The position numbers and the translations under genes are program-made. From Patescibacteria group bacterium (GTDB lineage Bacteria; Patescibacteriota; Minisyncoccia; Phycocordibacterales; UBA2100): 64,000 nucleotides of DNA. The first letter of the stretch is position 1; every line of letters starts with the position of its first letter. A model generated the notes under the pieces. It ran no database searches and had not been told where the DNA came from. It saw nothing but the letters and a program-made list of their open reading frames with translations. The stretch spans positions 234,361-298,360 of the forward strand of contig JBBTSD010000001.1 of the NCBI GenBank assembly GCA_038064835.1, read 5' to 3'. Of this stretch, positions 24,982 to 61,723 are shown piece by piece.

Positions 24982-26226
24982 ATGGCAAAAAAGAAAAAAG
25001 GAAACACAAAAAAGGTGGTACTTCGCAAAAAAACGGCGAAGGTTGCGAAACTACCCAAGCCAAAAAAAGTCGTCTCAAAGCGTGCCCCCATCAAGACAGT
25101 TGTTCGCCCCCAGAAACCCGTCCCCAAGAAAAAGACCAGCAAGAAAATAGACGCCGAAGAAAAGAAGGCACTCACACTGCTCTCGCTTGGCAAAGAACGA
25201 GGATATGTAACCTACGATGAAATATTGCGCTCTTTTCCGACAATCGAAGAAAACATCCTCCTTCTCGAAGAGATGTACGAACGATTTGCAACTGCGGGTG
25301 TCGATGTACTCGAGACAGGTAGCATGCTCGACAATGCGCATGCAGATGAAGTTCTTGAACGCAAGAAATTGCATCGTCGTCGGAGTGATTCGTCGTACGA
25401 CTCAATTCAGATGTATCTCCGCGAGATTGGCCAGTACCCCCTGCTTAACGCTCAGCAAGAACGAGAGCTGGCACAGCGCATCGTGGCAGGTGATATGGAG
25501 GCCCAAAACATCCTCGCGCGCTCAAACCTCCGTCTCGTTGTTTCTATTGCAAAAAAATATGCCAACCGCTCTCCAGACCTGACTCTGCTTGATTTGATTC
25601 AAGAAGGGAACTTGGGTCTTGCCAAAGCGGTGGTTAAATTCGATTGGACCAAGGGATACAAGTTTTCTACCTACGCAACCTGGTGGATTCGCCAGGCTAT
25701 TACGCGCGCGCTTGCCGATCAATCGCGCACTATTCGTATCCCTGTGCACATGGTGGAGACAATCGCCAAATACAAGCAAAAGATGCGCGAGCTCTCTCAG
25801 CACCTGGGGCGCGACCCACTACCAGAGGAAGTTGCCTCAGAAATGGGTGTTGAAGTAGAGAAAATTTATACCATCCAAAAAATCAGCCAGGATACCGTTT
25901 CGCTCGAAACTCCTGTGGGAAGTGACGATGATGACAAATCGAGCCTTGGAAGCTTTGTTGCTGACGAGACCATCGAATCACCGGATCATGGGGCCTCGCA
26001 TCGTATTTTGAGTGAGCAGATTCAGTCGGTTCTCGATGAATTGTCACCGAAGGAGCGCAAGATTCTTGAGCTCCGTCATGGACTCACCGAAGAGGGGATT
26101 TGCTACACCCTCGAAGAGGTAGGACGCGAATTCGGCGTTACGCGCGAACGCATTCGCCAAATTGAAGCAAAAGCACTTGAAAAAATCCGCTCACACGGCC
26201 GTGCCAAACAACTTCGCAGTTACTAG
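24982..26226 (+). CDS. rpoD: RNA polymerase sigma factor, sigma-70 family, with lysine-rich N-terminal tail
   Basis: Region 2 ([29 protein letters not shown]) and region 4 ([21 protein letters not shown]) are present. It follows dnaG, as in the conserved macromolecular-synthesis operon. Confidence 0.9.
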
Positions 26227-26314
26227 TCAGCTTTAGGGACGAGCCCTCGCACCTACCTGTGCTGCTTTTGCATACGAGAAGATCAGACCTTCTCATTTCC
26301 GCAACCCCCTGCCC

Positions 26315-26355
26315 AAAACCCCATGTCGGACTTACGAAGTCCGACATGGGGTTTT
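26315..26355 (+). terminator. Strong rho-independent terminator after rpoD
   Basis: aaaaccccatgtcggac...gtccgacatggggtttt, a 16-bp stem with flanking A/T runs. Confidence 0.8.
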
Positions 26356-26437
26356 GGAGGGTGTGAGCAGTTACCTCCACAATTTTGCCAGAGAGTAGAC
26401 AATCCACTCGTTCAGGAGTAGATTTTCTGTTCGTCAT

Positions 26438-26974
26438 ATGTCCAGTGTTTTACGAGTTTTACGAAAAGTAGCCAGCGTTGGCACCCCCACCGAGCCTGCT
26501 CCCGAGGCTGTTTTCGTTGCAAAAGAGCTACCTGTAGGGGAGAACTTGCGCAAAGCCATTGAACAATTATATGGCGGACGGGCACTGCGTATTCGACATG
26601 TGGATGCAGGATCGAACAATGGAGAGGAATATGAAATGACGGCACTCAACAATGCCTTCTACGACATCGAACGATTCGGCCTTTCTTTCGTCGCGTCTCC
26701 TCGACATGCGGATGTGCTCACCGTTTCCGGTCCGGTGACGAGAAATATGGAACACGCCCTGCGGGTGTGTTATGAAATGACACCTGCTCCGAAAATAGTG
26801 ATTGCTGTGGGTGATGGTGCATGCACCGGCGGTATCTGGAAAGACTCCTATGCAGTTGTTGGCGCTGTCGAAAATGTCATTCCTGTTGATCTCAAAATAC
26901 CGGGTGATCCGCCATCACCCAACGAGATTCTTTCAGGGATTCTGCATGCGCTGACGCATGCGCGAGTTCGTTGA
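26438..26974 (+). CDS. NuoB / group-4 hydrogenase small-subunit homolog lacking 3 of 4 Fe-S cysteine ligands (EhrS-like)
   Basis: It aligns to NuoB: RHVDAGSNNGEEYE replaces the CCxxE motif, IAVGDGACTGG replaces GSCAxSGG, and IPGDPP replaces GCPP. The conserved DIERFG and RHADVL regions are retained. Confidence 0.75.
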   Translation: MSSVLRVLRKVASVGTPTEPAPEAVFVAKELPVGENLRKAIEQLYGGRALRIRHVDAGSNNGEEYEMTALNNAFYDIERFGLSFVASPRHADVLTVSGPVTRNMEHALRVCYEMTPAPKIVIAVGDGACTGGIWKDSYAVVGAVENVIPVDLKIPGDPPSPNEILSGILHALTHARVR

Positions 26975-28940
26975 TATTTCTATGGGCTTACTTACTGAAC
27001 TTTTGGTGATTACTGGGTGCGCCGCACCATGTGTCGCGGGTTTTGTGGTTCTCCTTGCCCCGCACCGGAACACGGTCATGCAATCAGTGCTTGTTCTCGG
27101 TTCTCTCGCCGGCTTTTGCGGGACCATCCTTTCGTTCTTTATTGAGAATCCAATTTTCGCGTTGCTCGCACCATACACTATGGTTGACGCGGTGTCTTTG
27201 TTCTTTCTGTTGCTTGTTTTTGCAGGAACGGGCATCACCTCGTTTTTTGCCATCGCGTATGTACCACTATACAAGTATGCATTTCCCGCATCACGCGTGA
27301 ACGGAGCAACAGCATTTTTTGTGACCGGTATGCTGGGTGTTGTAGTTGCAGGGAGCGTTCCGCTGTTCCTTTTCTTTTGGGAAGTAATGTCTATAGCAGC
27401 ATACTTTCTGGTAGTTTCTGATCGTTCGGCAGAATCTATTAAGGCCGGACTCATTTACTTCGTCATGACCCATCTGGGGCTTGTTTCACTCCTTGGTGGA
27501 TTTGCGCTGATTGCGCCCGACTCGATTTTTGCTACCTGGCAAGATGTGGTAATTGCCGCGGGCGGAGCGTCCTACTGGTCGTTGGCGTTTGCCTTCGCGC
27601 TTTTCTGCATTGGATTTGGGTCAAAGGCTGGAATAGTGCCATTTCACGCATGGCTTCCGTATGCTCATCCGCAAGCTCCAAGTCACTCATCCGCACTTCT
27701 CTCTGGCGTTATGCTTCCTGTCGCTGTGTTTGGTTTTATTCGCATCAGCTCGCTATTTCCCTTTATCCCATTTGAATGGGCGTGCATGGTGATTGCGGCA
27801 GGACTCCTCTCCGCCTTCTTCGGGTCACTGCACGCCGCTGTCGAAAAAGATATGAAAAGACTGCTTGCCTATTCGTCAATTGAGCACATGGGGCTGATCT
27901 TTACCGGCATAGGCGTTCTATTGGTCTTGAAAACCGCACCACATGAAATTGCGGGGCCACTCATCGAGGGGGTTTCATTGTTCATAGCGCTTCATCTCGT
28001 CAATCATATGTTTTTCAAGGCAGGGCTTTTTATGTCTGCTGGTATCGTCGCCGCTAAGACACACACACGAAACCTGGATGAGTTGGGAGGTCTCGCAAAA
28101 CGCTGGCCTCTCTTTTCTGGGGGCGTTTTGCTCCTCTCGCTTTCGGCAGCAGCTCTTCCGCCTCTCGGTACTTTTTTTGGTGAGTGGGCTTTGATGCAAT
28201 CACTCGCACTCGGTATTGCTCAGCTACCTTTGCTTTTTGCGGGCGTTCTTTCCATTGTGCTTATGGTTGTCGCGCTCGCTGCTGGTCTTGCGCTCCTGGC
28301 ATCAATCAAATTGTTTAGTGTTGCATTCTTGGGACGAGCGCGTACAGAAAAAGCGGCGCATGTTGAGTCCTTGCCGTGGTCTTTGATGCTGGCTCCTCTG
28401 TTCTGTGCGGTGGGAGGGGTTCTTACTGCATTTATTGCCGTTCCATTTTTTGCGGCCCACACAATGCGGGGGGCAAACATTGTGTTTTCAGACATTAGTC
28501 TTGCCCCGACTGCCAGCGTAAATGTATGGGCGACTGCTGCCACGGTCCTCGTATTGGCCGGTCTCATACTGCTAGTGAGACGCTTGTTTGGTGCAGAAAA
28601 AGTTCGTATCACGGCAACATGGGATTGTGGTGCGCCACTCACGCCACGGATGCAATACACTGCAACAGGATTTGCAGGACCCGTTCGCTTCTTTTTTCGC
28701 CCGTTTCTCTTTTTAAAGAAAACACTCACCGTGACCCCGCTTGCAGGACATTCGTGGATTGCGAGTCGCGTGCTCATTTCAGAAGTAGGATCTGTCTGGG
28801 AGCGATGGGTGTACCAGCCTGTTGCGGATAGTGTGCTTTCAGTCGCGTCGTATGCAGCGCGTATACAAAGCGGAATAGTTCAGGTATATATTCTCATAAT
28901 TTTTGTGACCCTGGTTGCAACACTTACGCTCGCCATATGA
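26958..28940 (+). CDS. NuoL/MnhA-like antiporter-type membrane subunit (HyfB/EhrA-like)
   Basis: 660 aa, about 16 TM segments. WLPYAHPQAPSHSSALLSGV matches the NuoL/M/N signature [22 protein letters not shown]. The start overlaps the stop of the preceding gene. Confidence 0.75.
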   Translation: MREFVDISMGLLTELLVITGCAAPCVAGFVVLLAPHRNTVMQSVLVLGSLAGFCGTILSFFIENPIFALLAPYTMVDAVSLFFLLLVFAGTGITSFFAIAYVPLYKYAFPASRVNGATAFFVTGMLGVVVAGSVPLFLFFWEVMSIAAYFLVVSDRSAESIKAGLIYFVMTHLGLVSLLGGFALIAPDSIFATWQDVVIAAGGASYWSLAFAFALFCIGFGSKAGIVPFHAWLPYAHPQAPSHSSALLSGVMLPVAVFGFIRISSLFPFIPFEWACMVIAAGLLSAFFGSLHAAVEKDMKRLLAYSSIEHMGLIFTGIGVLLVLKTAPHEIAGPLIEGVSLFIALHLVNHMFFKAGLFMSAGIVAAKTHTRNLDELGGLAKRWPLFSGGVLLLSLSAAALPPLGTFFGEWALMQSLALGIAQLPLLFAGVLSIVLMVVALAAGLALLASIKLFSVAFLGRARTEKAAHVESLPWSLMLAPLFCAVGGVLTAFIAVPFFAAHTMRGANIVFSDISLAPTASVNVWATAATVLVLAGLILLVRRLFGAEKVRITATWDCGAPLTPRMQYTATGFAGPVRFFFRPFLFLKKTLTVTPLAGHSWIASRVLISEVGSVWERWVYQPVADSVLSVASYAARIQSGIVQVYILIIFVTLVATLTLAI

Positions 28941-29872
28941 CACTTCTTTTCGCATGTATAAATACCATAGTGATTGTTGCGATCGCCCCACTGACCATTG
29001 GTATAATCCGGAAAGGAAAGGCATATTTGCAGAATAGAAGAGGAGCATCAATTTTTCTCCCATACCTGCAAATTGCGTCACTTATGCGCAAGGAGATGAC
29101 TATAACGGAACATAGCTCATGGGTCTTTCGTAGTGTCCCGTTCGTTGTGCTTGCTAGCGCACTTTTTATAACTATCGCTATTCCTGCGGTGGTTATCGGA
29201 GTGATGCCCAGTGCCCTCACTAATATATTTGTGGTTGTGGGTGCGCTTGCGTTTGGTGCGGTTTTTCTCGTGATGGGCGGAATGGATACCGCTAGCACAT
29301 TTGGCAACATGGGATCCAGTCGAGAAATGACATTATCCGCTCTCGTAGAGCCCGTGATTGTTATCACCCTCTCCACACTTGCACTTCTGGCGGGGAGTTG
29401 GGGAGTGGACGGTATTCTTACAAACGCAGTTTTGAATCCATGGGCAGATGGTGGGGCATTCGCACTCACGCTTTGCGCGCTTCTGTTGATTACACTTCTT
29501 GAAAATGCTCGTTATCCAGTCGACAACCCTGCAACCCATCTCGAGCTGACCATGGTGCATGAGGCAATGATTTTAGAGTACTCGGGCCCGTATCTCGCGC
29601 TACTTGAATATGCAGCGGCAATCAAGCTTACAGTGATGGCTGTTTTTGTAGCAAACCTTGCGCTGCCATACGGACTGGTGGTGGCACCAGTATCGCTTGT
29701 AGGCATTCTGGTGGGCATCAGTTTGTTCTGCGGGAAGGTCGGACTTGCTGCCTTGGTGATTGCGCTAGTAGAGACCCTGGTTGTAAAAATGCGTTTCTAT
29801 CGAATGCAAGAGTATGTGTTACTCTCGCTTGCATTTGCCCTCGCTGGCTTGAGTGTTGCTCTACTCACCTAA
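28937..29872 (+). CDS. NuoH/HycD-like membrane subunit (EhrB-like)
   Basis: 311 aa. IRKGKAYLQNRRGASIFLPYLQ resembles the N-terminal loop motif of the NuoH/HycD family. ATGA start/stop overlap. Confidence 0.65.
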   Translation: MTLLFACINTIVIVAIAPLTIGIIRKGKAYLQNRRGASIFLPYLQIASLMRKEMTITEHSSWVFRSVPFVVLASALFITIAIPAVVIGVMPSALTNIFVVVGALAFGAVFLVMGGMDTASTFGNMGSSREMTLSALVEPVIVITLSTLALLAGSWGVDGILTNAVLNPWADGGAFALTLCALLLITLLENARYPVDNPATHLELTMVHEAMILEYSGPYLALLEYAAAIKLTVMAVFVANLALPYGLVVAPVSLVGILVGISLFCGKVGLAALVIALVETLVVKMRFYRMQEYVLLSLAFALAGLSVALLT

Positions 29873-29880
29873 TACATAGT

Positions 29881-30528
29881 ATGACTTCACTATCAGATAT
29901 AATTGTTATTTTTTCAGGCGGTATCTTGCTGGTGTCATTTTTCATGGTAAGCAGGATGCGCCTGAGGACAATGGTTTCTTTGTTCCGTGCGCAGTCTCTC
30001 TTGCTCGCTGGGTACACCAGTGTACTCGCACTTATTCTGGACGAGCCTGCCATGCTCATACCCGCCGGATTGATATTTGTTGCGAAAGTATTCGCCGTGC
30101 CTTACTTGATTCGTTCGTCCAGTAGGCGGATGAACGCTTCAGAGCGCCTCTCCTCCTTCTTGCGTCCTACAGGGTTATCAATTGCGGCACTTGTTTTAAT
30201 TAGCGGAGCTTTTCTCGTCGCACAATCACTGCCGTTCACTACATCAGAGCAGGGGATTGTGGGTACCGCTTTTGCTCTTATTGCACTCGGGTTTCTTCTG
30301 CTTGTAACACGCACAGATATGTATGGGCAGACGCTCGGTTTTCTGACGCTCGAAAATGGCATTTTTGCTTTCGGGCTTTCGCTCACCCATGGTATGCCGT
30401 TACTTGTCGAGCTCGGCGTTGTATTCGATGTTATGGTTGCATTCCTTCTGATGACGGCACTGTTGGCGAGAGCCCAAAAAGAATACCGATCAGTAGGTAC
30501 TGAAAACTTACGCGAGCTTATCGGCTAA
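29881..30528 (+). CDS. Small polytopic membrane subunit (HyfE/EhrC-like)
   Basis: 215 aa with about 6 TM segments. The size and operon position correspond to HyfE. Confidence 0.45.
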   Translation: MTSLSDIIVIFSGGILLVSFFMVSRMRLRTMVSLFRAQSLLLAGYTSVLALILDEPAMLIPAGLIFVAKVFAVPYLIRSSSRRMNASERLSSFLRPTGLSIAALVLISGAFLVAQSLPFTTSEQGIVGTAFALIALGFLLLVTRTDMYGQTLGFLTLENGIFAFGLSLTHGMPLLVELGVVFDVMVAFLLMTALLARAQKEYRSVGTENLRELIG

Positions 30529-30536
30529 TTACTTGT

Positions 30537-32015
30537 ATGCTTCCTTCTCTCCTACTGCTCTCATCTTTGGCAAGTGGCGTGCTGGTATTTATAGTGCGGC
30601 CCGATCGATTTGTGTGGGGGGTTGCTTTTCTCGGCTCATGCATTGCTCTGGGGTTTGGAGTTTTTGTTGGAGTCATTGCGATCACTGGTGGTGGGATTTT
30701 TGGAGGGGGTGCATGGTACCTCAATGGGATCACCGGCGTTATGGTGGTCTTGATAGCAGTGATTCAATTCACTGCGACACTCGTGAGTATTTCACATCTC
30801 TCACATGAAGTGCATCACCAGGTGGTGACAGTGGCGCAGGCGCGCCGTTACTTTGCACTCCTGTCACTCTTCACTCTTTCTATGTTTGCTAGCGTGATGG
30901 CCAACAACCTGGGCATTCTGTGGGTTGCTCTGGAAGCAACGACCCTCGCAACCACGCTTCTTGTCGCATTCTATGCCCGTCCAGGATCACTGGAGGCCGC
31001 GTGGAAGTATCTCACGCTCTGTTCTGTAGGAATTGCTATCGGACTCTTGGGTCTTTTTGTGGCCTACTATGCTGCCTATGTTGCCCATGTGGGCGATCGC
31101 CTCACCAGTATCCAGTGGACAACATTGTTCGAAAACGCACACCTCCTTTCTCCCGAACTTATGCAGTTTGCATTTGTCCTTGTGCTCATCGGTTATGGCA
31201 CTAAGGCGGGATTTGCGCCAATGCACGCATGGCTTCCCGATGCACATTCTCGCGCCCCTGCGCCTATCTCAGCACTTCTTTCCGGAGTGCTTTTACCTGT
31301 TGCTTTTTTTGCAGTGATTCGTTTCAAGGCAATCGTTGATGGAGCGATGGGTGGAAGCGAATGGAGCAGCAGCCTCCTTATCATCTTTGGTGTGTTTTCT
31401 ATAGTAGTTAGCGCGATTTTTATCGTGCGGCAAAGTGATTACAAACGACTGCTTGCCTATTCATCGATCGAACATATGGGTATTGCGGCGTGTGCTTTTG
31501 CACTTGGTGCCTTCGGATCGGTTATTGGTCTAGTGCACATTGTCGGGCACGCTCTCATCAAGTCCGCCTTGTTCTTTGGTGCGGGCGAATTGTTCCTTCG
31601 TTTCAAAACAACGCTCTGTTCCCGTGTTGGTTTTATTTCAGAAACACTTCCACTGACCGCGACATCATTCACTATCGCTCTAGGTGCGTTACTGGCTATC
31701 CCCCCGTCTCCTCTTTTCTTTACTGAGTATCAGCTCGTGTTGTATGGCATGCGCTTTGAGCCGCTTTCTATTTCGCTCCTGCTTGTTGCTTTGGTGGTTA
31801 CCGCGGCTGGCTTCATGAGAACTGTGGTGCCTCTTTTAGTGGCACCAGCGACTGCTGTTGAAACACATGAAGTCCCCAAGGGTGAGTTCTGGACATTGGC
31901 TCATGTAGCAGTGTATGTGCACTTGCTGCTTGCCGTTATGTTGGGTGTTATGGTATGGACGCCACAAGGCCTGGCCTTTTTTGCGCATATTAGTATGGTG
32001 TCACCACACATATGA
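30537..32015 (+). CDS. NuoM/N-like antiporter-type membrane subunit (HyfF/EhrD-like)
   Basis: GYGTKAGFAPMHAWLPDAHSRAPAPISALLSGV is the canonical antiporter-subunit motif. 492 aa. Confidence 0.75.
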   Translation: MLPSLLLLSSLASGVLVFIVRPDRFVWGVAFLGSCIALGFGVFVGVIAITGGGIFGGGAWYLNGITGVMVVLIAVIQFTATLVSISHLSHEVHHQVVTVAQARRYFALLSLFTLSMFASVMANNLGILWVALEATTLATTLLVAFYARPGSLEAAWKYLTLCSVGIAIGLLGLFVAYYAAYVAHVGDRLTSIQWTTLFENAHLLSPELMQFAFVLVLIGYGTKAGFAPMHAWLPDAHSRAPAPISALLSGVLLPVAFFAVIRFKAIVDGAMGGSEWSSSLLIIFGVFSIVVSAIFIVRQSDYKRLLAYSSIEHMGIAACAFALGAFGSVIGLVHIVGHALIKSALFFGAGELFLRFKTTLCSRVGFISETLPLTATSFTIALGALLAIPPSPLFFTEYQLVLYGMRFEPLSISLLLVALVVTAAGFMRTVVPLLVAPATAVETHEVPKGEFWTLAHVAVYVHLLLAVMLGVMVWTPQGLAFFAHISMVSPHI

Positions 32016-33550
32016 CCCTTTCATTATTGCGCGAACAAATAGGTGTGGCACAAGGGTCGAACGATCTTGTTTCGATTGCCAGAGCCGAGTTTCGTACTAT
32101 GGCCGTGCGTTGTGTGCAGGCGGGTGCGCCACTGGTGTTTATGTACGCGCTTGACGAGCGATCGACGCGTCGTGTGTTTGTTGTGCGTGCAGTGTTTTCT
32201 GTGCCTGGATCGGGATTCCTCACCCTCACCGTCGATGTTCCTGAGCAAGAGTTATCCTACCCGTCTCTAACTACGGAAATCATGGCCGCCCACTGGTTCG
32301 AACGGCTTATCTTCGATCAGTATGGTCTAGTGGCTGAAGAGCATCCAGATTGGAGGCGACTCATGCATCATGAAAATATTCCTGCACATGTGTACCCGTT
32401 GCGCAAGGATTTTGCGTGGAACACCAAGCTTCCTTATGCGAGCGAACCATATCCCATGCACGCGGTGCAGGGCGATGGTATCTATGAAATCCCTGTGGGA
32501 CCAATTCACGCAGGAATTATTGAGCCAGGTCACTTTCGTTTCAATGTACGAGGTGAGAGAATCGTCACACTCGAAGGAAAGTTGTTTTTCAAACATAAAG
32601 GAGTAGAAAAACTAGTCGAAGGAAAAACCCCTGCAGAGGCACTGCCTTTTATTGAACGGGTGTCCGGTGACATGGTAGTGGCACATACACTTGCGTTTGC
32701 AGAAGCAGTTGAGCACGCATCCGGCATGTCAATAAGTGCGCGTGCTGATTCGTTGCGTATGCTGTGGCTCGAAATGGAGCGACTCACGGCTCATATCTTT
32801 GACATTGGCAACATGGGGGGTATGGGGACTGGATTTACTTTCATGGCGGCGCAGTGTTTTCGTGTAGTTGAGGAGTTACGACGCATGCACTATGCAATTG
32901 TTGGGCATCGATATCTCCGGGGTGCAATCACGCTTGGCGGCGCTCACGATATTAGTCAAAAGAATAGAGAAGATCTCGATGCGTTACTGACAAAGGTTGA
33001 AACCGAGCTCGAGACGCTTTGCGGGATTGCGTATGCGAATGATGGCCTCATGGAACGATTTGAAACAACCGGGGTTCTTTCTCGTGCTGCAGCGATTGCC
33101 TACGGTGCGCGTGGAGTGCCGGCCAGAGCATCTGGTGTTACTAGTGACATGCGTCGCGATCATCCGTCAGGTGCTTATACTCGCATCCCGGTAACGGTTG
33201 CTACCAAGACTTCTGGGGATGTGCGCGCACGGTTTTCGGTCCGTGTCCTTGAATGTGCAGAATCTCTTCGTTTGGCTCGTCTCTGTTTGACGCAACTGCC
33301 ACAAGGACCGGCATATACAAAGTTTTCGGTGCATGCAGGAAGTTCGCTTGGATGGGCTGAAAGTTTCCGTGGAGCAGTCATTGATTGGGTACGCATTGAC
33401 ACATCGGGAAAGTTGGATCGTGTAGCGATATCCGATCCGTCATTCTGTAACTGGTCACTGTTCGGAGAAATTGGCCCCGGCAACATCGTCCCCGATTTTC
33501 CTTTGTGTAACAAAAGCCTTAACCTGTCGTACTCAGGAACCGATCTGTAG
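32012..33550 (+). CDS. Fused NuoC-NuoD / hydrogenase large-subunit homolog without Ni-Fe binding cysteines (EhrL-like)
   Basis: N-terminal NuoC-like region, then a NuoD/HycE-like region (GPIHAGIIEPGHFRF). No N-terminal CxxC is present. The C-terminal motif is DPSFCNW instead of DPCxxCxxH. ATGA overlap with the upstream gene. Confidence 0.75.
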   Translation: MTLSLLREQIGVAQGSNDLVSIARAEFRTMAVRCVQAGAPLVFMYALDERSTRRVFVVRAVFSVPGSGFLTLTVDVPEQELSYPSLTTEIMAAHWFERLIFDQYGLVAEEHPDWRRLMHHENIPAHVYPLRKDFAWNTKLPYASEPYPMHAVQGDGIYEIPVGPIHAGIIEPGHFRFNVRGERIVTLEGKLFFKHKGVEKLVEGKTPAEALPFIERVSGDMVVAHTLAFAEAVEHASGMSISARADSLRMLWLEMERLTAHIFDIGNMGGMGTGFTFMAAQCFRVVEELRRMHYAIVGHRYLRGAITLGGAHDISQKNREDLDALLTKVETELETLCGIAYANDGLMERFETTGVLSRAAAIAYGARGVPARASGVTSDMRRDHPSGAYTRIPVTVATKTSGDVRARFSVRVLECAESLRLARLCLTQLPQGPAYTKFSVHAGSSLGWAESFRGAVIDWVRIDTSGKLDRVAISDPSFCNWSLFGEIGPGNIVPDFPLCNKSLNLSYSGTDL

Positions 33551-33600
33551 AATTCGGTCACATCTTCCAAAAAAGAAGTCCGCACTAATGCGGACTTTTG

Positions 33601-34290
33601 CTAACTAAGAAGTCGTTGGCGAATGACCGCCATAGCTTCTTTGCACATATGGGCATGAGAGAGAGCAGCGTTCAACATGTGCGGAACCTTCTGTCCGTGC
33701 CCGGGGTCGAAGTACGCGTCAATAATGGCCTCTTCTTTTTCGATAAAACTGTGGCAAGCATCTTTGCCCATCCCGACCAGCACAGAAGAGGCAAGATAAC
33801 AGCTAACAACTTCACTGTCCGCTCGGGTAATGAAATACTCGGGCGGCTCGATTCCCTGCTCTTTGATGCGCGCGGCCACAATACCGTGGTGCATTGAAAG
33901 GACTTCGTTGTCCACACTTTCGCAATCAACGCATGCGGTTGCGTAGAGAACGGCGTTAAGCCCATAGCCGTCAGTAATTACGACATCATGTGCCGCGAGC
34001 GCTGGCTTCAAGTGTCGCGCATTGAATTCATTCAGGTGCGCCCAACATTTGAATAGGCGCGTTACAGGGTGCTGTGTTCGCTCACTTTCAGCCCATAAAA
34101 GTGGGTGTGGCAGTTTCCCAAACGGGTCCTCCAGGAAGGCACATGAATGTTGAGGAAATGTGATTGGCACCGTGCGCTTGAGTCCTTTGAATACCTCTGT
34201 TCGTCCGCTTCCTCGCATTCCTGAAACGGAAAAGAAATGGACTTTCTTGGCAGACTGGCTCTGCTGTTTCTGTGCTGTGCTTTCGTGCAT
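33601..34290 (-). CDS. Thymidylate-kinase-like protein with atypical P-loop (GSGRTE, Lys to Arg)
   Basis: Aligns to dTMP kinase: VSGMRGSGRTE versus EGxDGxGKTT, IKPALAAHDVVITDGYG versus IKPAL....VIxDRY, and a LID-like region. The track start is TTG 34344; the first ATG is 34290. Confidence 0.5.
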   Translation of the reverse strand: MHESTAQKQQSQSAKKVHFFSVSGMRGSGRTEVFKGLKRTVPITFPQHSCAFLEDPFGKLPHPLLWAESERTQHPVTRLFKCWAHLNEFNARHLKPALAAHDVVITDGYGLNAVLYATACVDCESVDNEVLSMHHGIVAARIKEQGIEPPEYFITRADSEVVSCYLASSVLVGMGKDACHSFIEKEEAIIDAYFDPGHGQKVPHMLNAALSHAHMCKEAMAVIRQRLLS

Positions 34291-34425
34291 GTAACCCTCT
34301 TTCAGTGCGGTCGCTATGGTACTCCGGGCATTGCTAGTTTTCAAATGATCTTTGTGTTATGGAAACAAGAAAAAGAAGGGCGCGAGCCTCACTTTTTGGA
34401 GCACTCTCTATGGTATAGTGCCCCC

Positions 34426-37392
34426 ATGAAGAGAGATCAAGGAGGATTCGCGAGTCTCTATGCGAAACTCAACCAGATTCAAAAGCACGCAGTTGATTTG
34501 ATTGAAGGACCAGTGATGGTAGTGGCGGGTCCGGGGACAGGAAAGACGCAGATTCTTACCGTACGAATTGCAAACATTCTTAAAAAGACCGACACGCCAC
34601 CCGATGCGATTCTCGCTCTGACCTTCACCGAGTCTGGTGTTGCCGCAATGCGGCGCAGGCTTGTCGAGATTACAGGCTCCGCAGGGTACAAAATAAATAT
34701 CCACACCTTTCACGGTTTTTGTAACGAAATCATTCGTCGTTATCCAGATGAATTTCCACGCATCATCGGCGCAAAGCCTATTTCTGAAGTGGTTCGTATT
34801 GAACTCTTCCGACTCTTGCTGGATACTTTGCCCCTTGCGCTTCTGCGCCCGTTTGGTGATCCCTACTACCATGTGTCGTCTCTTCGTCGCGTTATTGGTG
34901 AGCTGAAACGAGAGAATATTTCACCAGAAAAACTTCACTCACATGTCAGTCGTGCGATGAGCGAGCTTGAGGACACACCGGATCTATATCACGAAAAAGG
35001 AGTACACAAAGGATCAATGAAGGGAAAGTATCAAACAGAAGAGCGGCGCCTTGAGCGAACTCGAGAGCTTGCGCAGGTATACGAAGCCTATGAATCCGCA
35101 TTGCGTGAACGCAGGCTTTTTGACTTTGAAGATATGATTGTCGAAGTTGTTTCCCAACTCGAAACAAACAAAGATCTCCTCTTGCGTTTGCAAGAGGAGT
35201 ATCATTATATTCTGGCCGATGAGCATCAGGATGCGAACGGTGCACAAAATCGTCTGCTCGAATTACTATCGGGTTTTCATGAGCGTCCAAATCTTTTTAT
35301 TGTGGGAGACGAGAAACAGGCAATCTTTCGCTTTCAGGGGGCGTCACTCGATAACTTCCTTTACTTCAAAAAACTGTATCCGGATGCCGAACTCATCACC
35401 CTGACGGAAGCATATCGCTCTGGACAAAAGATTCTTGACTCCGCACATGCCATGATTGGGCGCGATGGGGTGGCTGGGCGTATTCCACTGGTATCACGGG
35501 CGAATATCTTGAAAGATACGGTTGAGTTGAGAAGCTACCCAACGCATGATGACGAAGTGCGCGGTGTGGCGCGAGAGGTGCGGAGACTTATTGATGAAGG
35601 TGTTGCATCGCAAGAAATCGCACTCCTATTTCGTGCAAACGCAGAAGCTGAGGCACTTGCGCGGGCACTGGAACAAGAGGGGATTGTGGTTGCAATTGAA
35701 TCAGATCAAAATGCTTTGGCTGACCCTGATATCCGCTCGCTTATGCTTTTGTTTGAAGCCGTGGCGCACCCCGGGAGCGACGAAGCGCTGGGAAAAGTCT
35801 TGCATGCACCCTTTCTTGGGCTCTCACCCGTTGATGTGTATCGAGTGGGCAGTTTTGCGTACAAGCGACGCATCCCACTGGCGGATGTGCTTGAAAGCAG
35901 AAAGCTAATCGAGGAGGCAAAAGTACGCGAACCAGATGCTCTACATGCTGTATTCACGCTTATCGAAAGTCTGGCCAAAAAGCGCGGCTCGGTTCTCGAT
36001 AGGTGCGACGAGGCTATTCACGAATCGCAGTTTTTTGCCCATGTGTTAAAACTTCCACGGGCTGTTGAGGTAGTAGAAAAACTAGCTGGACTATTGAGTG
36101 ATATTGAGGCGCTTGCTGATGGTAACCCCGATTACTCAATGCGTGATTTGGTTGGACACCTGCGCCTCCTTGCCGAATACCACATTCCAGTGCGTAAGGA
36201 AATTCGAGCAAAACCCAGGTCGGGGGCAGTGCGCTTAATGACCGCACACAAATCAAAAGGTCTCGAGTTCGACTATGTATTTGTGACGAATGTGGTAGAT
36301 GGTGCGTGGGGTGGCAAGCGTGAGAAGTCACTGTTCGAGCTTCCAACCGGGGGTGCGGAGGGTAGTGATGACGACGAGAGACGATTGTTATATGTGGCAC
36401 TGACTCGCGCTCGTTACGGAGTCTTTATGAGCCACCCCGAAGAAAAGGAGGGTAAGGCGCTACTGCCGTCTCGGCTTATTGAAGAAATCGATGAAACACA
36501 TATTGCACGGGTTGCCGTACGCGATGCCCCAGGTCCTGAAGAGCGGATACGCGCACGCCGGCGAGTCAATCAAAGCCCCGATATTCATAGCAAGGTTTTC
36601 TTGCGTGAGCTCTTTGTGGCACAAGGGATATCGGTTACTGCTATAAATAATTACCTGAACTGTCCATGGCGCTATTTCTACCAAAATCTTATTCGCCTAC
36701 CTCAAGCTCCGCACAAACATTTGCTCTACGGTAACGCGGTGCATGCGGCGCTCAGTGAATTTTTTAACATGCGCACCCGTGGAAAACCTGCAACACCTCA
36801 GACGCTTGTAAGCGCATTTGTGGACGCACTCGAGCGCACATCAATTGGCCGAGCGGATCTCGAAGTGGCGCGGGCACGAGGTACTGAACACTTGATTGGC
36901 TGGTACAAAAACGCAGAATCCCGTTTCCCTAAAGAAGTTTTGACTGACTACCGTATTTCTCATGAGTTTGAAACTGATCATGCCGAAATCCCTGTCATTA
37001 AAGTAGTTGGTGCGCTTGACCGCGTCGATATTCATCCCGAAGGTGATGTCTCTGTCGTTGACTACAAAACGGGAAATCCCAAAAGTAGAAATGAAATTAC
37101 GGGCAAGACAAAAAGTAGTGAGGGAGAGTATTGGCGGCAGCTCGTCTTTTACAAAATGCTGTTAGACATGGAAGGGAAGTACCACATGCGCCAAGCTTCT
37201 CTCGACTTTATTGAGCCAGACAAGAAAGGTAAGTATCATCGTGAAGATTTTATTGTTACCACAGAAGATGTGGAGATACTTCGTGCGGAAACTAAGCGTG
37301 TGGTGGGAGAGGTATGGGACTTTTCATTCTGGGAGAGGACTTGCGACGAGAAAGGATGCGAACATTGCGCTTTGAGAGATATAGTGCTATAA
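34426..37392 (+). CDS. UvrD/PcrA-like SF1 helicase fused to a C-terminal PD-(D/E)XK nuclease with 4-Cys cluster (Cas4/AddB-like)
   Basis: Walker A VVAGPGTGKTQ. DEHQD (motif II). Helicase motifs III-VI are present. C-terminal LDRVDI...VSVVDYKTG and the cysteines YLNCPWRYF...CDEKGCEHC. Confidence 0.85.
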   Translation: MKRDQGGFASLYAKLNQIQKHAVDLIEGPVMVVAGPGTGKTQILTVRIANILKKTDTPPDAILALTFTESGVAAMRRRLVEITGSAGYKINIHTFHGFCNEIIRRYPDEFPRIIGAKPISEVVRIELFRLLLDTLPLALLRPFGDPYYHVSSLRRVIGELKRENISPEKLHSHVSRAMSELEDTPDLYHEKGVHKGSMKGKYQTEERRLERTRELAQVYEAYESALRERRLFDFEDMIVEVVSQLETNKDLLLRLQEEYHYILADEHQDANGAQNRLLELLSGFHERPNLFIVGDEKQAIFRFQGASLDNFLYFKKLYPDAELITLTEAYRSGQKILDSAHAMIGRDGVAGRIPLVSRANILKDTVELRSYPTHDDEVRGVAREVRRLIDEGVASQEIALLFRANAEAEALARALEQEGIVVAIESDQNALADPDIRSLMLLFEAVAHPGSDEALGKVLHAPFLGLSPVDVYRVGSFAYKRRIPLADVLESRKLIEEAKVREPDALHAVFTLIESLAKKRGSVLDRCDEAIHESQFFAHVLKLPRAVEVVEKLAGLLSDIEALADGNPDYSMRDLVGHLRLLAEYHIPVRKEIRAKPRSGAVRLMTAHKSKGLEFDYVFVTNVVDGAWGGKREKSLFELPTGGAEGSDDDERRLLYVALTRARYGVFMSHPEEKEGKALLPSRLIEEIDETHIARVAVRDAPGPEERIRARRRVNQSPDIHSKVFLRELFVAQGISVTAINNYLNCPWRYFYQNLIRLPQAPHKHLLYGNAVHAALSEFFNMRTRGKPATPQTLVSAFVDALERTSIGRADLEVARARGTEHLIGWYKNAESRFPKEVLTDYRISHEFETDHAEIPVIKVVGALDRVDIHPEGDVSVVDYKTGNPKSRNEITGKTKSSEGEYWRQLVFYKMLLDMEGKYHMRQASLDFIEPDKKGKYHREDFIVTTEDVEILRAETKRVVGEVWDFSFWERTCDEKGCEHCALRDIVL

Positions 37393-46134: not shown

Positions 46135-46393
46135 GTGATGTGTATGATAGTGCTAAATGCTTTCTGCAATCGTCTTGAAAAAACCGACCCCTTTTCCTCT
46201 CGACGGCGCTGTGCCCAATAGTCTCCTCAGAGACTTCAGAGCCTGCATATCGGAATTACCCGATATGGCTATGATAACACGGGGCATACTGGAAGTCAAT
46301 CGGTACTACTTTGGATTGACGACTTCCCTGCACAGGCATATAAAGACTACAGGAAGAAGGAAGGGGCTCCTTGAAACAAGACAGGAGAAGGGA

Positions 46394-47065
46394 ATGAGTA
46401 AAATCAGGCCAATTACAGGGCTCGGTCCCGTTCGTGTGACCGCAGACTACAATCGCGTACGGTTCTTGGTCTCACTCCTTTTTGCTGCCGCACTAATCCT
46501 CGGGATTATGTGGGCGCAGTATGAAGGATATATCGCGCTGGTAAACAGACTGCAAACAATAGTCTTCACGATTGTGTTTGCTATCGTTCTGGTGGTCGGT
46601 GTGTCGCGTGGTTTGTACGAGTCATGGCACTATTCGAATGCAATCGACGCGATCAAGCGCGTCAATCTTGATACTGAAGAGTTGAAACGACTTCTCGATG
46701 TCCACGACCTCTCTGAGCGCAGTGTTGATCTGTTGCAAAATGAGATTGAAGACGAAGCTTTCCGTCGCGTTGAGAAAATCGAATACTTCGCCTTCATCGC
46801 AGTGCAGGTCGGTCTCTTTGGTACGGTCTTGGGCATGATGCTGGGCATTCTAGAGATCGCCGACAAGGTGCGCTCTATAGAAAGCATGGTTTCCAATCTC
46901 CCGACAATCATCGGCTATATCGCTGTTGCTCCTGCGACGACCCTGGTCGGCATCGTAGTGAGTTTGGCTGTTCTGCAAGTTGCACGAATGGCTCGTGATT
47001 CTGCAATGGCCTTTACGCATCGCGTTGCACGGACATTGCACGACCATCTCGCGCGGAAGGAGTAA
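46394..47065 (+). CDS. MotA/TolQ/ExbB-family proton-channel protein
   Basis: GLFGTVLGMMLGI and AVAPATTLVGIVVSLAVL match the C-terminal motifs GLLGTVxGM and AxxTTxxGLxVAIP. AGGAGAAGGG RBS. Confidence 0.6.
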   Translation: MSKIRPITGLGPVRVTADYNRVRFLVSLLFAAALILGIMWAQYEGYIALVNRLQTIVFTIVFAIVLVVGVSRGLYESWHYSNAIDAIKRVNLDTEELKRLLDVHDLSERSVDLLQNEIEDEAFRRVEKIEYFAFIAVQVGLFGTVLGMMLGILEIADKVRSIESMVSNLPTIIGYIAVAPATTLVGIVVSLAVLQVARMARDSAMAFTHRVARTLHDHLARKE

Positions 47066-47071
47066 TTACTC

Positions 47072-47794
47072 ATGGCCAGAAAGAGTAGATGGCAAGGAGG
47101 TGAATCAGTAGCGCAAAGAGCGCAAGCGGTTACTTTCAATGATGCGCTCTTCAATATGATCGTGGGAATGGTGCTGTTGATTGCGCTGTTCATGCTTATG
47201 CTCAATCCGAAGGGCGCACAGAGCACCAATGTGGCTGCGCCCCCAGGCAACATCATTATCGAGGCCTATTGGAATCAGATTGATTCGCGCACAAAAAAAC
47301 CTGTCGACACGGATGTCGATCTGTGGGTGAAGTGTGTCAATGATCAGCCTGTAGGGTACTCCAATAAGGGCACAGCGCTTTGTAACTATTTGCGCGATGA
47401 CCTGGGTAATCGTTCGCCGGATGATCCGGTGAATTACGAGCTCACGACGAGTCGTGGCATCGCCCATGGGCAGTACTGCGTTAATGTGCATTTGTACAGC
47501 AATCGTAGCAATGTGTATCCGATTACTGTAAAGGTGACAGTAAAGATTGCAAAGAGCGCTCCTGGAGCGAGTGGTGGTGACAAAGTTGCATCAACCCCCG
47601 TGCTTGTGTCCGATGTCGTGTTGAAACGCACTGGCCAAGAGCTCAATGTATTCTGCTTTACCATCAACGAAGGCGGGGCACTCGTGGCGTCGCAAACATT
47701 TACTTCGCAAGGCATCTGCTTGCGCAGTCCTGCGAATGCTGCGACAGGTAAGTGTGATGAAGGCACTGCTCCTTTTTCGCAGCAACAGCCATAG
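47072..47794 (+). CDS. Membrane-anchored periplasmic protein (ExbD/TolR-position partner, atypically large)
   Basis: Single N-terminal TM helix followed by a beta-rich domain of about 200 aa. It starts 6 bp after the channel gene. Confidence 0.4.
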   Translation: MARKSRWQGGESVAQRAQAVTFNDALFNMIVGMVLLIALFMLMLNPKGAQSTNVAAPPGNIIIEAYWNQIDSRTKKPVDTDVDLWVKCVNDQPVGYSNKGTALCNYLRDDLGNRSPDDPVNYELTTSRGIAHGQYCVNVHLYSNRSNVYPITVKVTVKIAKSAPGASGGDKVASTPVLVSDVVLKRTGQELNVFCFTINEGGALVASQTFTSQGICLRSPANAATGKCDEGTAPFSQQQP

Positions 47795-47803
47795 GAGAGT
47801 CAC

Positions 47804-51584: not shown

Positions 51585-51854
51585 CGATCTCTCCTTTCCT
51601 TCATTGTGTTTCAACTTGGACCAGCTCAGAGAGCTAGCTGTCGGTATTATATCATATACACATAGAAAAGCAATCTATAGGACAGTAAAGGACATCGTGT
51701 CCTTTACATGCTGGTGCAAGGATACCACCCGAAAAAAAGGAGTTCCCACATCAAAGAACAGTAATCGGCACAAGTCCATTACTTTACGAGGATGTGCGTG
51801 GTACTGTTGCCCATATTTTAGTAATCGCCGTTATTAATACAGAAATTATTTATA

Positions 51855-61714: not shown

Positions 61715-61723
61715 TGACTCGCT

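What the first reader, a model, noticed from the sequence alone, without database searches (positions are those of the whole stretch)
26438..33550. Six-gene complex-I / group-4-hydrogenase-like operon with the composition of an Ehr-type, redox-cofactor-poor module
Six tightly coupled genes, three joined by ATGA-type overlaps, are ordered small subunit (NuoB-like), NuoL-like, NuoH/HycD-like, HyfE-like, NuoM/N-like, and fused NuoC-D-like large subunit. No NuoI/HyfH-type 2x[4Fe-4S] ferredoxin subunit is present. No flavoprotein or formate dehydrogenase partner is present. No hyp/hyc maturation genes are present in the window. The composition matches what has been described as energy-converting hydrogenase-related (Ehr) complexes, whose physiological function is still unknown. 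In a genome that otherwise looks small and host-dependent, this is the only respiratory-type membrane complex in 64 kb. It sits directly downstream of dnaG-rpoD.
Basis: partly seen in the sequence, partly recalled or inferred. Interest (0 to 1): 0.78.

Follow-up and report, generated by a model that had tools for sequence, protein, structure and literature searches.

The report
Cofactor-free complex-I-like Ehr operon
An ultra-small Patescibacteria (CPR) bacterium carries a six-gene operon for a hydrogenase/complex-I-like membrane machine that has lost every ligand for its nickel-iron and iron-sulfur cofactors, so it probably still moves ions but cannot do its relatives' redox chemistry; the group is already in the literature and its function is still unknown.

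Summary
Six co-directional genes at 26438-33550 encode NuoB-like, HyfB-like, HycD/NuoH-like, HyfE-like, HyfF-like and fused NuoC-D-like proteins, bounded by hairpins. The window contains no HyfA/HyfH/NuoI, NuoEFG, Hyp or Hyc maturation homolog.

The Ehr reading is supported and can be sharpened. All four [NiFe] cysteines of the large subunit and all four [4Fe-4S] cysteines of the small subunit are replaced. This holds in 117 and 120 homologs respectively, and 43 small subunits have no cysteine at all.

Most non-CPR Ehr relatives with the same B-C-E-F-G gene core keep the Fe-S ligands. The CPR clade (100% bootstrap) is therefore a fully cofactor-free endpoint.

The proton-path residues are conserved: the antiporter-like Glu/Lys set, the NuoK-like glutamates, five E-channel glutamates, and the ND1, ND3 and beta1-beta2 loops.

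Best reading: a redox-independent, ion-gradient-linked translocator.

In sister CPR lineages the operon lies directly after the F1 ATP synthase genes, sometimes behind a CsoSCA-type carbonic anhydrase. Neither is in this window.

Jaffe et al. 2020 already reported CPR Ehr large subunits lacking the NiFe cysteines. This is a new variant of a known kind, of moderate interest.

The parts
26298..26371 (+). Long near-perfect inverted repeat (hairpin) between rpoD and the operon; probable rpoD terminator and upstream boundary of the transcription unit
   Evidence: Read directly from the sequence. Rfam gives only generic hairpin (miRNA-precursor) matches here and no riboswitch.
26396..26424 (+). Weak sigma-70-like promoter match 14 nt upstream of the first start codon (consensus match only)
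   Evidence: TAGACA-17-TAGATT, 9/12 matches. The number of such sites in the region is no higher than in shuffles.
26438..26974 (+). Small subunit (NuoB/HycG/HyfI-like, 178 aa) with no [4Fe-4S] ligands: C->N59, C->E62, C->G127 (preceded by D126), C->D156
   Evidence: PF01058 E 2e-27. Alignments to MbhJ, HycG and NDUFS7. 13-locus alignment. Among 120 homologs there is no Cys at any ligand position: E 120/120, G 119/120, D 118/120.
26958..28940 (+). HyfB-like subunit (660 aa): NuoL-type antiporter-like module fused to a C-terminal ND3/NuoA-like domain (TWDCG loop, Cys557)
   Evidence: NF005086 HyfB 417 bits. Best PDB hit is HycC. E142, K223, H237, E309, H346, H350, K354, E409, K451 and C557 are conserved in the CPR set (H346 in 8/10, K451 in 9/10, the rest 10/10). 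The TM8 Lys is Pro254 in this genome only. The ND3 homology of the HycC C-terminus comes from PMC9474812.
28937..29872 (+). HycD/HyfC/NuoH-like membrane anchor (311 aa) with E-channel glutamates and the ND1 loop
   Evidence: PF00146. HycD 7z0s_D E 1.7e-33. E130, E138, E189, E203 and E209 are kept 10/10; E199->A and E201->H. The loop PVDNPATHLELTMVHEAMILEYSG is nearly identical to that of NiFe-bearing relatives.
29881..30528 (+). HyfE-like membrane subunit (215 aa); the C-terminal half is NuoK-like, with two membrane glutamates invariant in the CPR set (GF..ENG and VE.G motifs)
   Evidence: NF008556 HyfE E 6e-20, below the curated cutoff. Alignment with E. coli HyfE and nine CPR homologs. Weak PF00420 (NuoK) hits on the homologs in L100 and L102. 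No PDB sequence hit.
30537..32015 (+). HyfF-like antiporter-like subunit (492 aa)
   Evidence: NF005045/NF005044 HyfF about 340 bits. E133, K223 and E397 conserved 10/10. The TM8 position is N/P/S, as in E. coli HyfF (N).
32012..33550 (+). Fused NuoC-NuoD/HycE-like large subunit (512 aa) lacking all four NiFe cysteines (S218, M221, S506, G509) and ending without a C-terminal maturation extension
   Evidence: Pfam. HycE alignment. 117-sequence conservation. Residue map. AF2 model with mean pLDDT 79.8, best fold match 7z0s_E at E 1e-31, TM 0.83.
33576..33597 (.). GC-rich hairpin between the operon and the convergent gene 33601-34344; probable bidirectional terminator and downstream boundary
   Evidence: Terminator scan, 9-bp stem, scored on the - strand. 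Sequence read.

Best explanation
The operon encodes a six-subunit, complex-I-like membrane complex of the Ehr type, related to group 4f/4a [NiFe] hydrogenases. The gene core is hyfB-C-E-F-G with the small-subunit gene moved to the front. SHOWN: it has lost all eight canonical cysteine ligands, four for the NiFe centre and four for the proximal [4Fe-4S] cluster. It has no ferredoxin-like, flavoprotein or formate dehydrogenase partner in the window. It keeps the charged-residue chain of both antiporter-like subunits, the NuoK-like glutamates, most E-channel glutamates, and the ND1, ND3 and beta1-beta2 coupling loops. INFERRED: it no longer transfers electrons but still conducts H+ (possibly H+/Na+) along the conserved path. 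It works as a redox-independent, ion-gradient-linked translocator or converter in a fermentative cell whose primary pump is presumably the F1Fo ATPase. The cofactor-free NuoB/NuoCD cap would act as a proton-loading or gating module rather than a wire. What the ion movement is coupled to is not established; it could be cation exchange or a non-redox reaction at or near the cap.
For: Identity. Cofactor loss: RVCGICGFAH->RVSGDMVVAH and DPCYSCTD->NLSYSGTD. GSCNGCE->GSNNGEE, GAC->GDG and PGCPP->PGDPP. There is no Cys at any ligand position in 117 large and 120 small subunits, and 43/120 small subunits are cysteine-free. No partner genes in the window. Conserved translocation and coupling residues: HyfB-like E142, K223, H237, E309, H350, K354, E409 and C557 at 10/10 (H346 8/10, K451 9/10); HyfF-like E133, K223, E397; NuoH-like E130, E138, E189, E203, E209; large-subunit H166, E171, H261, R372, E414 at 10/10 and R453 at 9/10; HyfE-like ENG and VE.G glutamates. 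The ND1 loop is nearly identical to that of NiFe-bearing relatives. Purifying selection: 64% mean column identity over 33 sequences down to 51% identity, with long invariant motifs. The six-gene order is kept in all 13 CPR-clade loci with a complete operon. Link to the ion cycle: the operon directly follows atpA/G/D/C in L006, L009, L100, L102 and in second-clade L018. None of the Ehr/4f loci outside the two CPR-type clades has atpD within the flanks.
Against: Nothing here measures ion transport or metal content. The Mrp-type Na+ module (MrpB/E/F/G) is absent, so a plain Na+/H+ antiporter mechanism has no obvious sodium path. A pure H+ conductor would need a coupling partner that is unidentified. 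The peripheral arm is more strongly conserved than a passive plug would need: the beta1-beta2 loop is invariant and C499 is invariant in 117/117, which hints at a retained active site. In this particular genome the HyfB-like TM8 lysine is proline, which might impair one proton path. The atp adjacency is absent from this window.
Confidence: 0.55

Rival explanations
1. CO2/bicarbonate-coupled machine (vectorial carbonic anhydrase). The complex would couple ion flow through its antiporter-like subunits to CO2 hydration or bicarbonate dehydration by a CsoSCA-type carbonic anhydrase, analogous to cyanobacterial NDH-1MS/CupA or DabA/DabB.
For: A roughly 350-aa CsoSCA-like gene sits about 115 nt upstream of the small-subunit gene, on the same strand, in L005, L100 and L102. 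In L100 and L102 it lies between the atp genes and Ehr. A homolog lies immediately after an Ehr operon in a Thiobacillus MAG (L060) and at the end of a DabA + 4x PF00361 cluster in Nitrosomonas (L103). The CxDxR and HxxC zinc-site motifs are invariant or nearly so. The model has pLDDT 92.6 and matches CsoSCA structures at E about 2e-16, TM 0.76. The conserved proton pathway into the former active-site pocket would suit a proton-producing or proton-consuming reaction.
Against: There is no CA-like homolog anywhere in the 64-kb window, and it is adjacent in only 3 of 14 CPR-clade loci with enough upstream sequence. In CPR locus L104 the CA follows the atp operon with no Ehr present, and in L105 it is solitary, so its primary link may be to atp or to neither. 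No physical interaction is shown. DAB and CupA do not need a NuoB/NuoD arm.
Confidence: 0.15
2. Still a redox enzyme. It would use a non-cysteine-ligated or novel cofactor, or a partner encoded elsewhere in the genome that docks on the cap and delivers electrons to an unknown acceptor. This is what is usually assumed for Ehr complexes.
For: The literature assumes that Ehr complexes couple cytoplasmic redox reactions to charge translocation. The pocket-lining residues and the proton pathway are conserved. D220, H225 and C499 are conserved near the former site. The whole genome was not surveyed.
Against: All eight canonical ligands are absent across more than 100 homologs, and many small subunits have no Cys at all. 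No Fe-S, flavin or molybdopterin gene lies in 64 kb or next to the operon in the other 13 CPR-clade loci examined. Non-CPR relatives that could be redox-active keep the Fe-S ligands, which makes their loss here look like a real change of function.
Confidence: 0.12
3. Not an energy converter. It would be a decaying relic or a complex re-used for a structural, sensing or assembly role unrelated to ion movement.
For: Pro replaces the central TM8 lysine of the HyfB-like subunit in this genome. The function of all Ehr complexes is unknown.
Against: All six ORFs are intact and tightly coupled. They occupy 7.1 kb, against an 859-kb record for the closest long-contig relative. The family is conserved in more than 100 CPR sequences with invariant functional residues.
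Confidence: 0.08

Closest known systems
[quoted passage not shown] 2020 (PMC7304191)
   Same: The large subunit is related to group 4 hydrogenases without the NiFe cysteines. It is co-encoded with NuoB-, NuoH- and antiporter-like subunits. The CPR sequences are monophyletic. Function is unknown.
   Different: The literature found here describes only the large subunit of the CPR clade. Here the small subunit is also shown to lack all [4Fe-4S] ligands, whereas most non-CPR Ehr loci sampled keep them (CCCC) and some carry a fused or separate 2x[4Fe-4S] module.
Group 4f [NiFe] hydrogenases (nearest NiFe-bearing relatives)
   Same: Same B-C-E-F-G gene core, the same GPIHAGIIEPGHFRF and PDFPL(I/C)NKS motifs, and a nearly identical ND1 loop. 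The literature places Ehr next to group 4f.
   Different: 4f members have ERxCGxC and ELCY[SA]C motifs, all four small-subunit cysteines and usually a ferredoxin-like module. They form a separate clade with 95% bootstrap.
E. coli hydrogenase 4 / FHL-2 (hyfABCDEFGHI) and FHL-1 (Hyc; structure 7Z0S)
   Same: Best-scoring curated families and PDB chains for five of the six subunits. The gene order hyfB-C-(D)-E-F-G is the same. HyfF lacks the TM8 Lys in both. The HyfB/HycC C-terminal ND3-like domain with its conserved Cys is present.
   Different: There is no HyfA, HyfD, HyfH or formate dehydrogenase, no NiFe or Fe-S ligands, no maturation genes or C-terminal extension, and the small-subunit gene comes first.
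Respiratory complex I (Nuo/NDH-1)
   Same: Homologous NuoB, C, D, H, A-like, K-like and L/M/N-like modules and coupling loops. The Glu/Lys chain is conserved.
   Different: No N module and no NuoI. No cluster N2. The quinone-site Tyr aligns with G219 and the beta1-beta2 His with I170. Only two antiporter-like subunits are present.
Mrp cation/proton antiporter
   Same: It is the only redox-free member of the superfamily, built on MrpA/MrpD antiporter-like subunits. It is the nearest functional analogy for a cofactor-free complex (own knowledge; PF00361 shared).
   Different: The subunits here score as HyfB/HyfF and not as MrpA/D. No MrpB/E/F/G homologs were detected. NuoH, NuoB and NuoCD homologs are present, and Mrp lacks these.
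NDH-1MS (CupA) and DAB (DabA/DabB) vectorial carbonic anhydrases
   Same: Carbonic-anhydrase-type proteins encoded next to PF00361 proton-conducting subunits. A CsoSCA-like gene adjoins Ehr in three CPR loci and one Thiobacillus locus, and adjoins a DabA cluster in Nitrosomonas.
   Different: The CA family is different (CsoSCA-type, not CupA or DabA). No CA gene is in this window. No interaction is shown.

Membership tests
Ehr complex | Large subunit homologous to group 4 [NiFe]-hydrogenase large subunit / NuoD | tested here: met
   PF00346 + PF00329 + weak PF00374. HycE E 1.8e-60. Fold match to 7z0s_E at TM 0.83.
Ehr complex | Both NiFe-binding CxxC motifs absent | tested here: met
   C241->S218, C244->M221, C531->S506, C534->G509. 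No Cys at these columns in 117 homologs.
Ehr complex | Co-encoded NuoB-like, NuoH-like and antiporter-like membrane subunits | tested here: met
   The same six genes are found in all 13 CPR-clade loci with a complete operon.
Ehr complex | Phylogenetic placement among Ehr rather than among NiFe-bearing group 4 enzymes | tested here: inconclusive
   In the NJ tree the CPR clade has 100% bootstrap and sits among SGD-type Ehr sequences, apart from the NiFe-bearing clade (95%). Its sister group is unresolved (27%). Jaffe et al. place CPR sequences in an Ehr subclade.
Group 4 [NiFe] hydrogenase (Hyf/4a, 4f) | L1 (RxCGxCxxxH) and L2 (DPCxxC) metal-binding motifs | tested here: not met
Group 4 [NiFe] hydrogenase (Hyf/4a, 4f) | Proximal [4Fe-4S] cluster ligands in the small subunit | tested here: not met
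   N59, E62, G127 and D156 in place of the four Cys. 0/120 homologs have Cys at any of these positions.
Group 4 [NiFe] hydrogenase (Hyf/4a, 4f) | Maturation machinery (hyp genes, endopeptidase, cleavable C-terminal extension) | tested here: not met
   No HypA/B or HycH/I homolog in 64 kb. The protein ends at ...GTDL, with no extension. The rest of the genome is not testable here.
Group 4 [NiFe] hydrogenase (Hyf/4a, 4f) | hyfB-C-E-F-G membrane/large-subunit gene order | tested here: met
   Compared with the E. coli hyf operon and about 80 related loci.
Respiratory complex I | Cluster N2 in NuoB and quinone-site Tyr/His in NuoD | tested here: not met
   No N2 ligands. The NuoCD Tyr aligns with G219 and the beta1-beta2 His with I170.
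Respiratory complex I | NuoE/F/G input module and NuoI | tested here: not met
   No tblastn hit in the window. None is adjacent in related CPR loci.
Mrp antiporter | MrpA/MrpD plus small subunits MrpB, C, E, F, G; no peripheral arm | tested here: not met
   The antiporter-like subunits match HyfB/HyfF 2.5-3 times better than MrpA/D. No Pfam or NCBIfam hit to Mrp small subunits. NuoB/CD/H homologs are present.
Vectorial carbonic anhydrase systems (NDH-1MS, DAB) | Carbonic-anhydrase-type subunit encoded with the PF00361 subunits | tested here: not met
   No CA-like homolog in the window. The feature is met only in relatives L005, L100, L102 and L060.

The most novel reading that the evidence does not exclude
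The CPR Ehr would be a complex-I-type coupling machine that runs without any redox chemistry. Ancestrally it would have been encoded in an atp operon - CsoSCA-type carbonic anhydrase - Ehr string. It would link the ion gradient made by the F1Fo ATPase to CO2/bicarbonate interconversion or another proton-consuming, non-redox reaction at the conserved former active-site pocket. That would make it a third, independent vectorial-carbonic-anhydrase-like use of the complex I scaffold, and a so far unrecognised element of membrane energetics in ultra-small symbiotic bacteria. The window's lineage would be a derived form that moved the operon next to dnaG-rpoD.
Probability: 0.13. Interest if true: 0.85.

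Novelty: new variant of a known kind. Interest (0 to 1): 0.58.

Why it matters
CPR/Patescibacteria are generally described as having an ATP synthase and no other respiratory-type complex (for example PMC12577380). Yet many Parcubacteria-type genomes keep a 7-kb, six-subunit complex-I-like operon under strong constraint.

Both metal sites are gone while the proton-path and coupling-loop residues are nearly unchanged. This makes the clade a natural experiment on whether the complex I coupling machinery can operate without electron transfer. It also gives the long-open question of what Ehr complexes do a tractable, cofactor-free test case.

The recurrent neighbourhood with the atp operon and a carboxysome-type carbonic anhydrase supplies concrete hypotheses: ion-gradient conversion, or CO2/bicarbonate coupling. 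These can be tested by heterologous expression.

If it turns out to be just an Mrp-like antiporter, the result is still useful for modelling how these symbionts energise their membrane.

Tried and rejected
1. Riboswitch or leader RNA upstream of the operon. Rfam at gathering thresholds finds nothing in 64 kb. An E-value scan of 26150-26500 gives only generic hairpin matches to the long inverted repeat.

2. TM8 Lys->Pro in both antiporter-like subunits first looked like a broken proton path. For HyfF-like it is a family trait shared with E. coli HyfF (N). For HyfB-like it is specific to this genome. It is therefore not a property of the clade.

3. The ND1-loop changes E199->A and E201->H looked CPR-specific. 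The THLELTM(V/I)HE loop is in fact shared by the whole 4f/Ehr family, including NiFe-bearing members. Only the first acidic residue differs: it is D in the NiFe-bearing members and A/S/T in most Ehr.

4. The convergent downstream gene (33601-34344) is conserved next to Ehr in the closest relatives. It looks like a degenerate P-loop kinase-like protein, with no significant Pfam or PDB match. It was treated as synteny and not as a subunit.

5. The metagenome scan for close relatives returned only 10 loci, few with usable flanks. These were useful for comparison, but context statistics for the CPR clade rest on 14 loci.

6. The AF2 monomer model of the large subunit has low confidence exactly in the most conserved interface regions (146-195 and 487-512).

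7. No literature was found on loss of the N2-type cluster in Ehr small subunits or on an Ehr-carbonic anhydrase link. Absence from this library does not prove novelty. Marreiros et al. 2013 could not be read.

Full report
OBSERVATION. Six + strand ORFs occupy exactly the stated coordinates: 26438-26974 (178 aa), 26958-28940 (660), 28937-29872 (311), 29881-30528 (215), 30537-32015 (492) and 32012-33550 (512). Pfam and NCBIfam assign them as follows. The first is NuoB/Oxidored_q6. The second is HyfB-like (PF00361; NF005086, 417 bits). The third is NADHdh/NuoH. The fourth is HyfE (NF008556, E 6e-20, below the curated cutoff). The fifth is HyfF-like (about 340 bits). The sixth is a NuoC+NuoD fusion with a weak NiFeSe_Hases hit. 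Best solved-structure relatives are the E. coli formate hydrogenlyase chains HycE, HycG, HycC and HycD and the Pyrococcus MBH chains.

The junctions are two ATGA overlaps (B/C and F/G), one 17-nt overlap (S/B, or a 7-nt gap with the next ATG) and two 8-nt gaps. A long hairpin (26298-26371) follows rpoD, and a GC-rich hairpin (33576-33597) separates the operon from a convergent gene.

The window contains rpoB, rpoC, dnaG and rpoD upstream and an AddA/UvrD-type helicase-nuclease downstream. tblastn finds no homolog of HyfA/HycB, HyfH/HycF/NuoI, NuoE/F/G, HycH/I, HypA/B, HyfJ or FocB. Pfam scans of 39 other ORFs find no other respiratory complex.

ORGANISM AND FAMILY. The large subunit is 100% identical to a protein of a Patescibacteria MAG. 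Its 120 best homologs (51-71% identity) carry Kaiserbacteria, Parcubacteria, Uhrbacteria and Minisyncoccota labels. In a library clustered at 50% identity the clade collapses to one neighbour at 53%, and the next relatives are at or below 44%. An NJ tree of 95 large subunits gives the CPR clade 100% bootstrap, with an unresolved sister group.

Jaffe et al. 2020 (PMC7304191) already reported that CPR sequences form a monophyletic group inside the Ehr subclade of group 4, lack the metal-binding cysteines and 'likely cannot interact with H2'. That paper does not discuss the small or membrane subunits.

COFACTOR SITES. Against HycE, RVCGICGFAH reads RVSGDMVVAH and DPCYSCTD reads NLSYSGTD. The protein ends four residues later, without the cleavable extension. 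Against MbhJ, HycG and NDUFS7, GSCNGCE reads GSNNGEE, the GAC motif reads GDG (a non-conserved Cys lies two residues downstream) and PGCPP reads PGDPP.

None of 117 large subunits has Cys at the four NiFe positions. Those positions read S/T, M/A, S and G. None of 120 small subunits has Cys at the four cluster positions. Those read T/N/S, E in 120/120, G in 119/120 preceded by D in 120/120, and D in 118/120. Forty-three small subunits contain no cysteine at all. The peripheral arm is therefore free of the canonical cofactors.

COMPARISON WITH THE WIDER FAMILY. I scanned one genome per species and annotated about 80 related loci by phmmer. The core order B-C-E-F-G is universal in bacteria and archaea. 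The small-subunit gene comes either first (as here) or last, sometimes behind a separate or fused 2x[4Fe-4S] module.

NiFe-bearing members carry ERxCGxC and ELCY[SA]C motifs. They correspond to what the literature calls group 4f and form their own clade with 95% bootstrap. The many 'SGD-type' Ehr loci come from Rokubacteria, Nitrospirota, Actinomycetota, Chloroflexota, Thaumarchaeota and Thiobacillus among others. They lack the NiFe cysteines, but nearly all keep all four small-subunit cysteines.

Complete loss of the Fe-S ligands is confined to three clades, each with 100% bootstrap. The first is this CPR clade. The second is a CPR-rich clade (Daviesbacteria, Saccharibacteria, Falkowbacteria). 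The third is a Methanosarcinales/Dehalococcoidales clade. Joint monophyly of the first two appears in only 9% of replicates. In all three, acidic or polar residues replace the ligands.

WHAT IS CONSERVED. I mapped the residues highlighted in the FHL structure paper (PMC9474812) onto ten CPR operons.

- Large subunit: beta1-beta2 loop H166 and E171, and proton-pathway residues H261, R372, E414 and R453, are retained. The canopy Asp is Asn (N504).
- NuoH-like subunit: E130, E138, E189, E203 and E209 are invariant, while E199->A and E201->H. The ND1 loop PVDNPATHLELTMVHEAMxLEYSG is almost identical to that of the NiFe-bearing relatives.
- HyfB-like subunit: E142 (TM5), K223 (TM7), H237, E309, H346, H350, K354 (TM11), E409 (TM12), K451 and the ND3-loop Cys557 are conserved. 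It therefore has the full TM5/TM7 Glu-Lys pair that HycC lacks.
- HyfF-like subunit: E133, K223 and E397 are conserved, and the TM8 position is N/P/S as in E. coli HyfF.
- HyfE-like subunit: both NuoK-type glutamates are invariant.

An alignment of 33 large subunits down to 51% identity has 64% mean column identity and long invariant motifs. The AF2 model of the large subunit matches HycE (TM 0.83) and then NuoCD. One peculiarity of this genome is that the TM8 lysine of the HyfB-like subunit is Pro254 (CCT). It is Lys in the nine other CPR operons and in 48 of 55 wider relatives.

GENOMIC CONTEXT. The six-gene order is identical in all 13 CPR-clade loci with a complete operon. The window's arrangement, dnaG-rpoD-Ehr-(unknown, convergent)-helicase, recurs in L004, L008 and L098.

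In the other subclade and in the second CPR clade, the operon lies directly downstream of atpA/G/D/C (L006, L009, L100, L102, L018). No locus outside these two clades has atpD within the flanks.

In L005, L100 and L102 a roughly 350-aa gene lies about 115 nt upstream of the small-subunit gene. It hits Pfam CsoSCA_cat. Its CxDxR and HxxC zinc-site motifs are invariant or nearly so. Its model has pLDDT 92.6 and matches carboxysomal beta-carbonic anhydrases at E about 2e-16, TM 0.76.

Homologs of this carbonic anhydrase occur in several other settings. One lies right after an Ehr operon in a Thiobacillus MAG (L060). One lies at the end of a DabA + four-PF00361 cluster in Nitrosomonas (L103). One lies between the atp operon and the helicase in a CPR locus without Ehr (L104). 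One is solitary (L105). The window has no homolog. Rfam finds no riboswitch upstream of the operon.

INTERPRETATION. Three things are shown. This is an intact, strongly constrained Ehr-type operon. It lacks every canonical ligand for the NiFe centre and the proximal Fe-S cluster. It has no electron-input genes nearby.

Three things are inferred. The complex does not transfer electrons. It still conducts H+ (or H+/Na+) along the preserved Glu/Lys/His chain and E-channel. It operates as a redox-independent, ion-gradient-linked device in a cell whose primary pump is presumably the F1Fo ATPase (confidence about 0.55).

What the ion flow is coupled to remains open. A plain Mrp-like exchange is the simplest idea, but no Mrp sodium module is present. 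The extreme conservation of the cofactor-free cap suggests that something still happens there. The carbonic-anhydrase neighbourhood makes CO2/bicarbonate coupling the most interesting alternative (about 0.15 for the family, lower for this locus). A cryptic redox function with an unseen partner (about 0.12) and a non-energetic or decaying role (about 0.08) are less likely.

COMPARISON AND NOVELTY. The locus passes the descriptive tests for Ehr. It fails the defining tests for a [NiFe] hydrogenase, for complex I and for Mrp (see the membership table). Three points do not appear in the searchable literature. The first is the complete loss of the Fe-S site in the small subunit, in contrast to most other Ehr. 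The second is the residue-level preservation of the coupling machinery. The third is the atp and carbonic-anhydrase synteny. I therefore rate it a new variant of a known kind, with interest 0.58.

Noticed in passing
window 27717-27719 (codon CCT, residue 254 of the HyfB-like subunit): The central TM8 lysine of the NuoL-type subunit is proline in this genome only. It is Lys in nine other CPR operons and in 48/55 wider relatives. The change needs at least two nucleotide substitutions.
   Followed up: partly
L005 3235-4293; L100 3173-4246; L102 3295-4329; L060 12319-13359; L103 10001-11053; L104 10001-11050: A roughly 350-aa CsoSCA-type beta-carbonic anhydrase family (1349 homologs, many from Patescibacteria, most unnamed in the source records). 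It is encoded next to Ehr operons, next to the atp operon, or at the end of a DabA/PF00361 cluster in Nitrosomonas. The fold was confirmed by AF2 and Foldseek.
   Followed up: partly
L006, L009, L018, L100, L102 (upstream of the small-subunit gene): The F1 ATP synthase genes atpA/G/D/C lie immediately upstream of the cofactor-free Ehr operon in two separate CPR-type clades. The same is not seen in any Ehr/4f locus outside those two clades.
   Followed up: partly
L013, L018, L025, L034, L039 (second clade); L075, L076, L080 (Methanosarcinales/Dehalococcoidales): Two further clades of Ehr small subunits have also replaced the [4Fe-4S] cysteines with D/E/N/T. The loss appears to be independent of the CPR clade in the NJ tree.
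   Followed up: partly
window 33601-34344 (- strand): A convergent 210-247-aa gene with a degenerate P-loop (SGxRGxGRTE) and no significant Pfam or PDB match. It is conserved directly downstream of Ehr in L004, L008, L098, L092 and L096.
   Followed up: partly
window 34237-37392: A UvrD/AddA-type helicase with a PD-(D/E)XK nuclease domain. It follows the Ehr operon in both CPR subclades (L098, L101, L102), and it follows the carbonic anhydrase gene in L104, where Ehr is absent. It marks the conserved downstream border of the insertion site.
   Followed up: partly
window 26298-26371: A roughly 27-bp-stem near-perfect inverted repeat between rpoD and the operon. Rfam returns only generic miRNA-precursor-like hairpin matches.
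   Followed up: partly
window 46157-48385: A MotA/ExbB/TolQ-type proton-channel protein followed by two unannotated ORFs. This is another potential consumer of an ion gradient in the same window.
   Followed up: no
window 51794-56464 and 59969-63643: A 1556-aa surface protein with SpaA/SdrD-type repeats, and two tandem GH130 mannoside phosphorylase-like genes.
   Followed up: no
L015 11454-12164 and other 236-290-aa small subunits of B-C-E-F-G-S loci: The small subunit in L015 carries an N-terminal 2x[4Fe-4S] ferredoxin-like domain. If the other 236-290-aa small subunits of this locus type carry the same fusion (not checked individually), it would explain why those loci have no separate HyfH/NuoI gene.
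   Followed up: no
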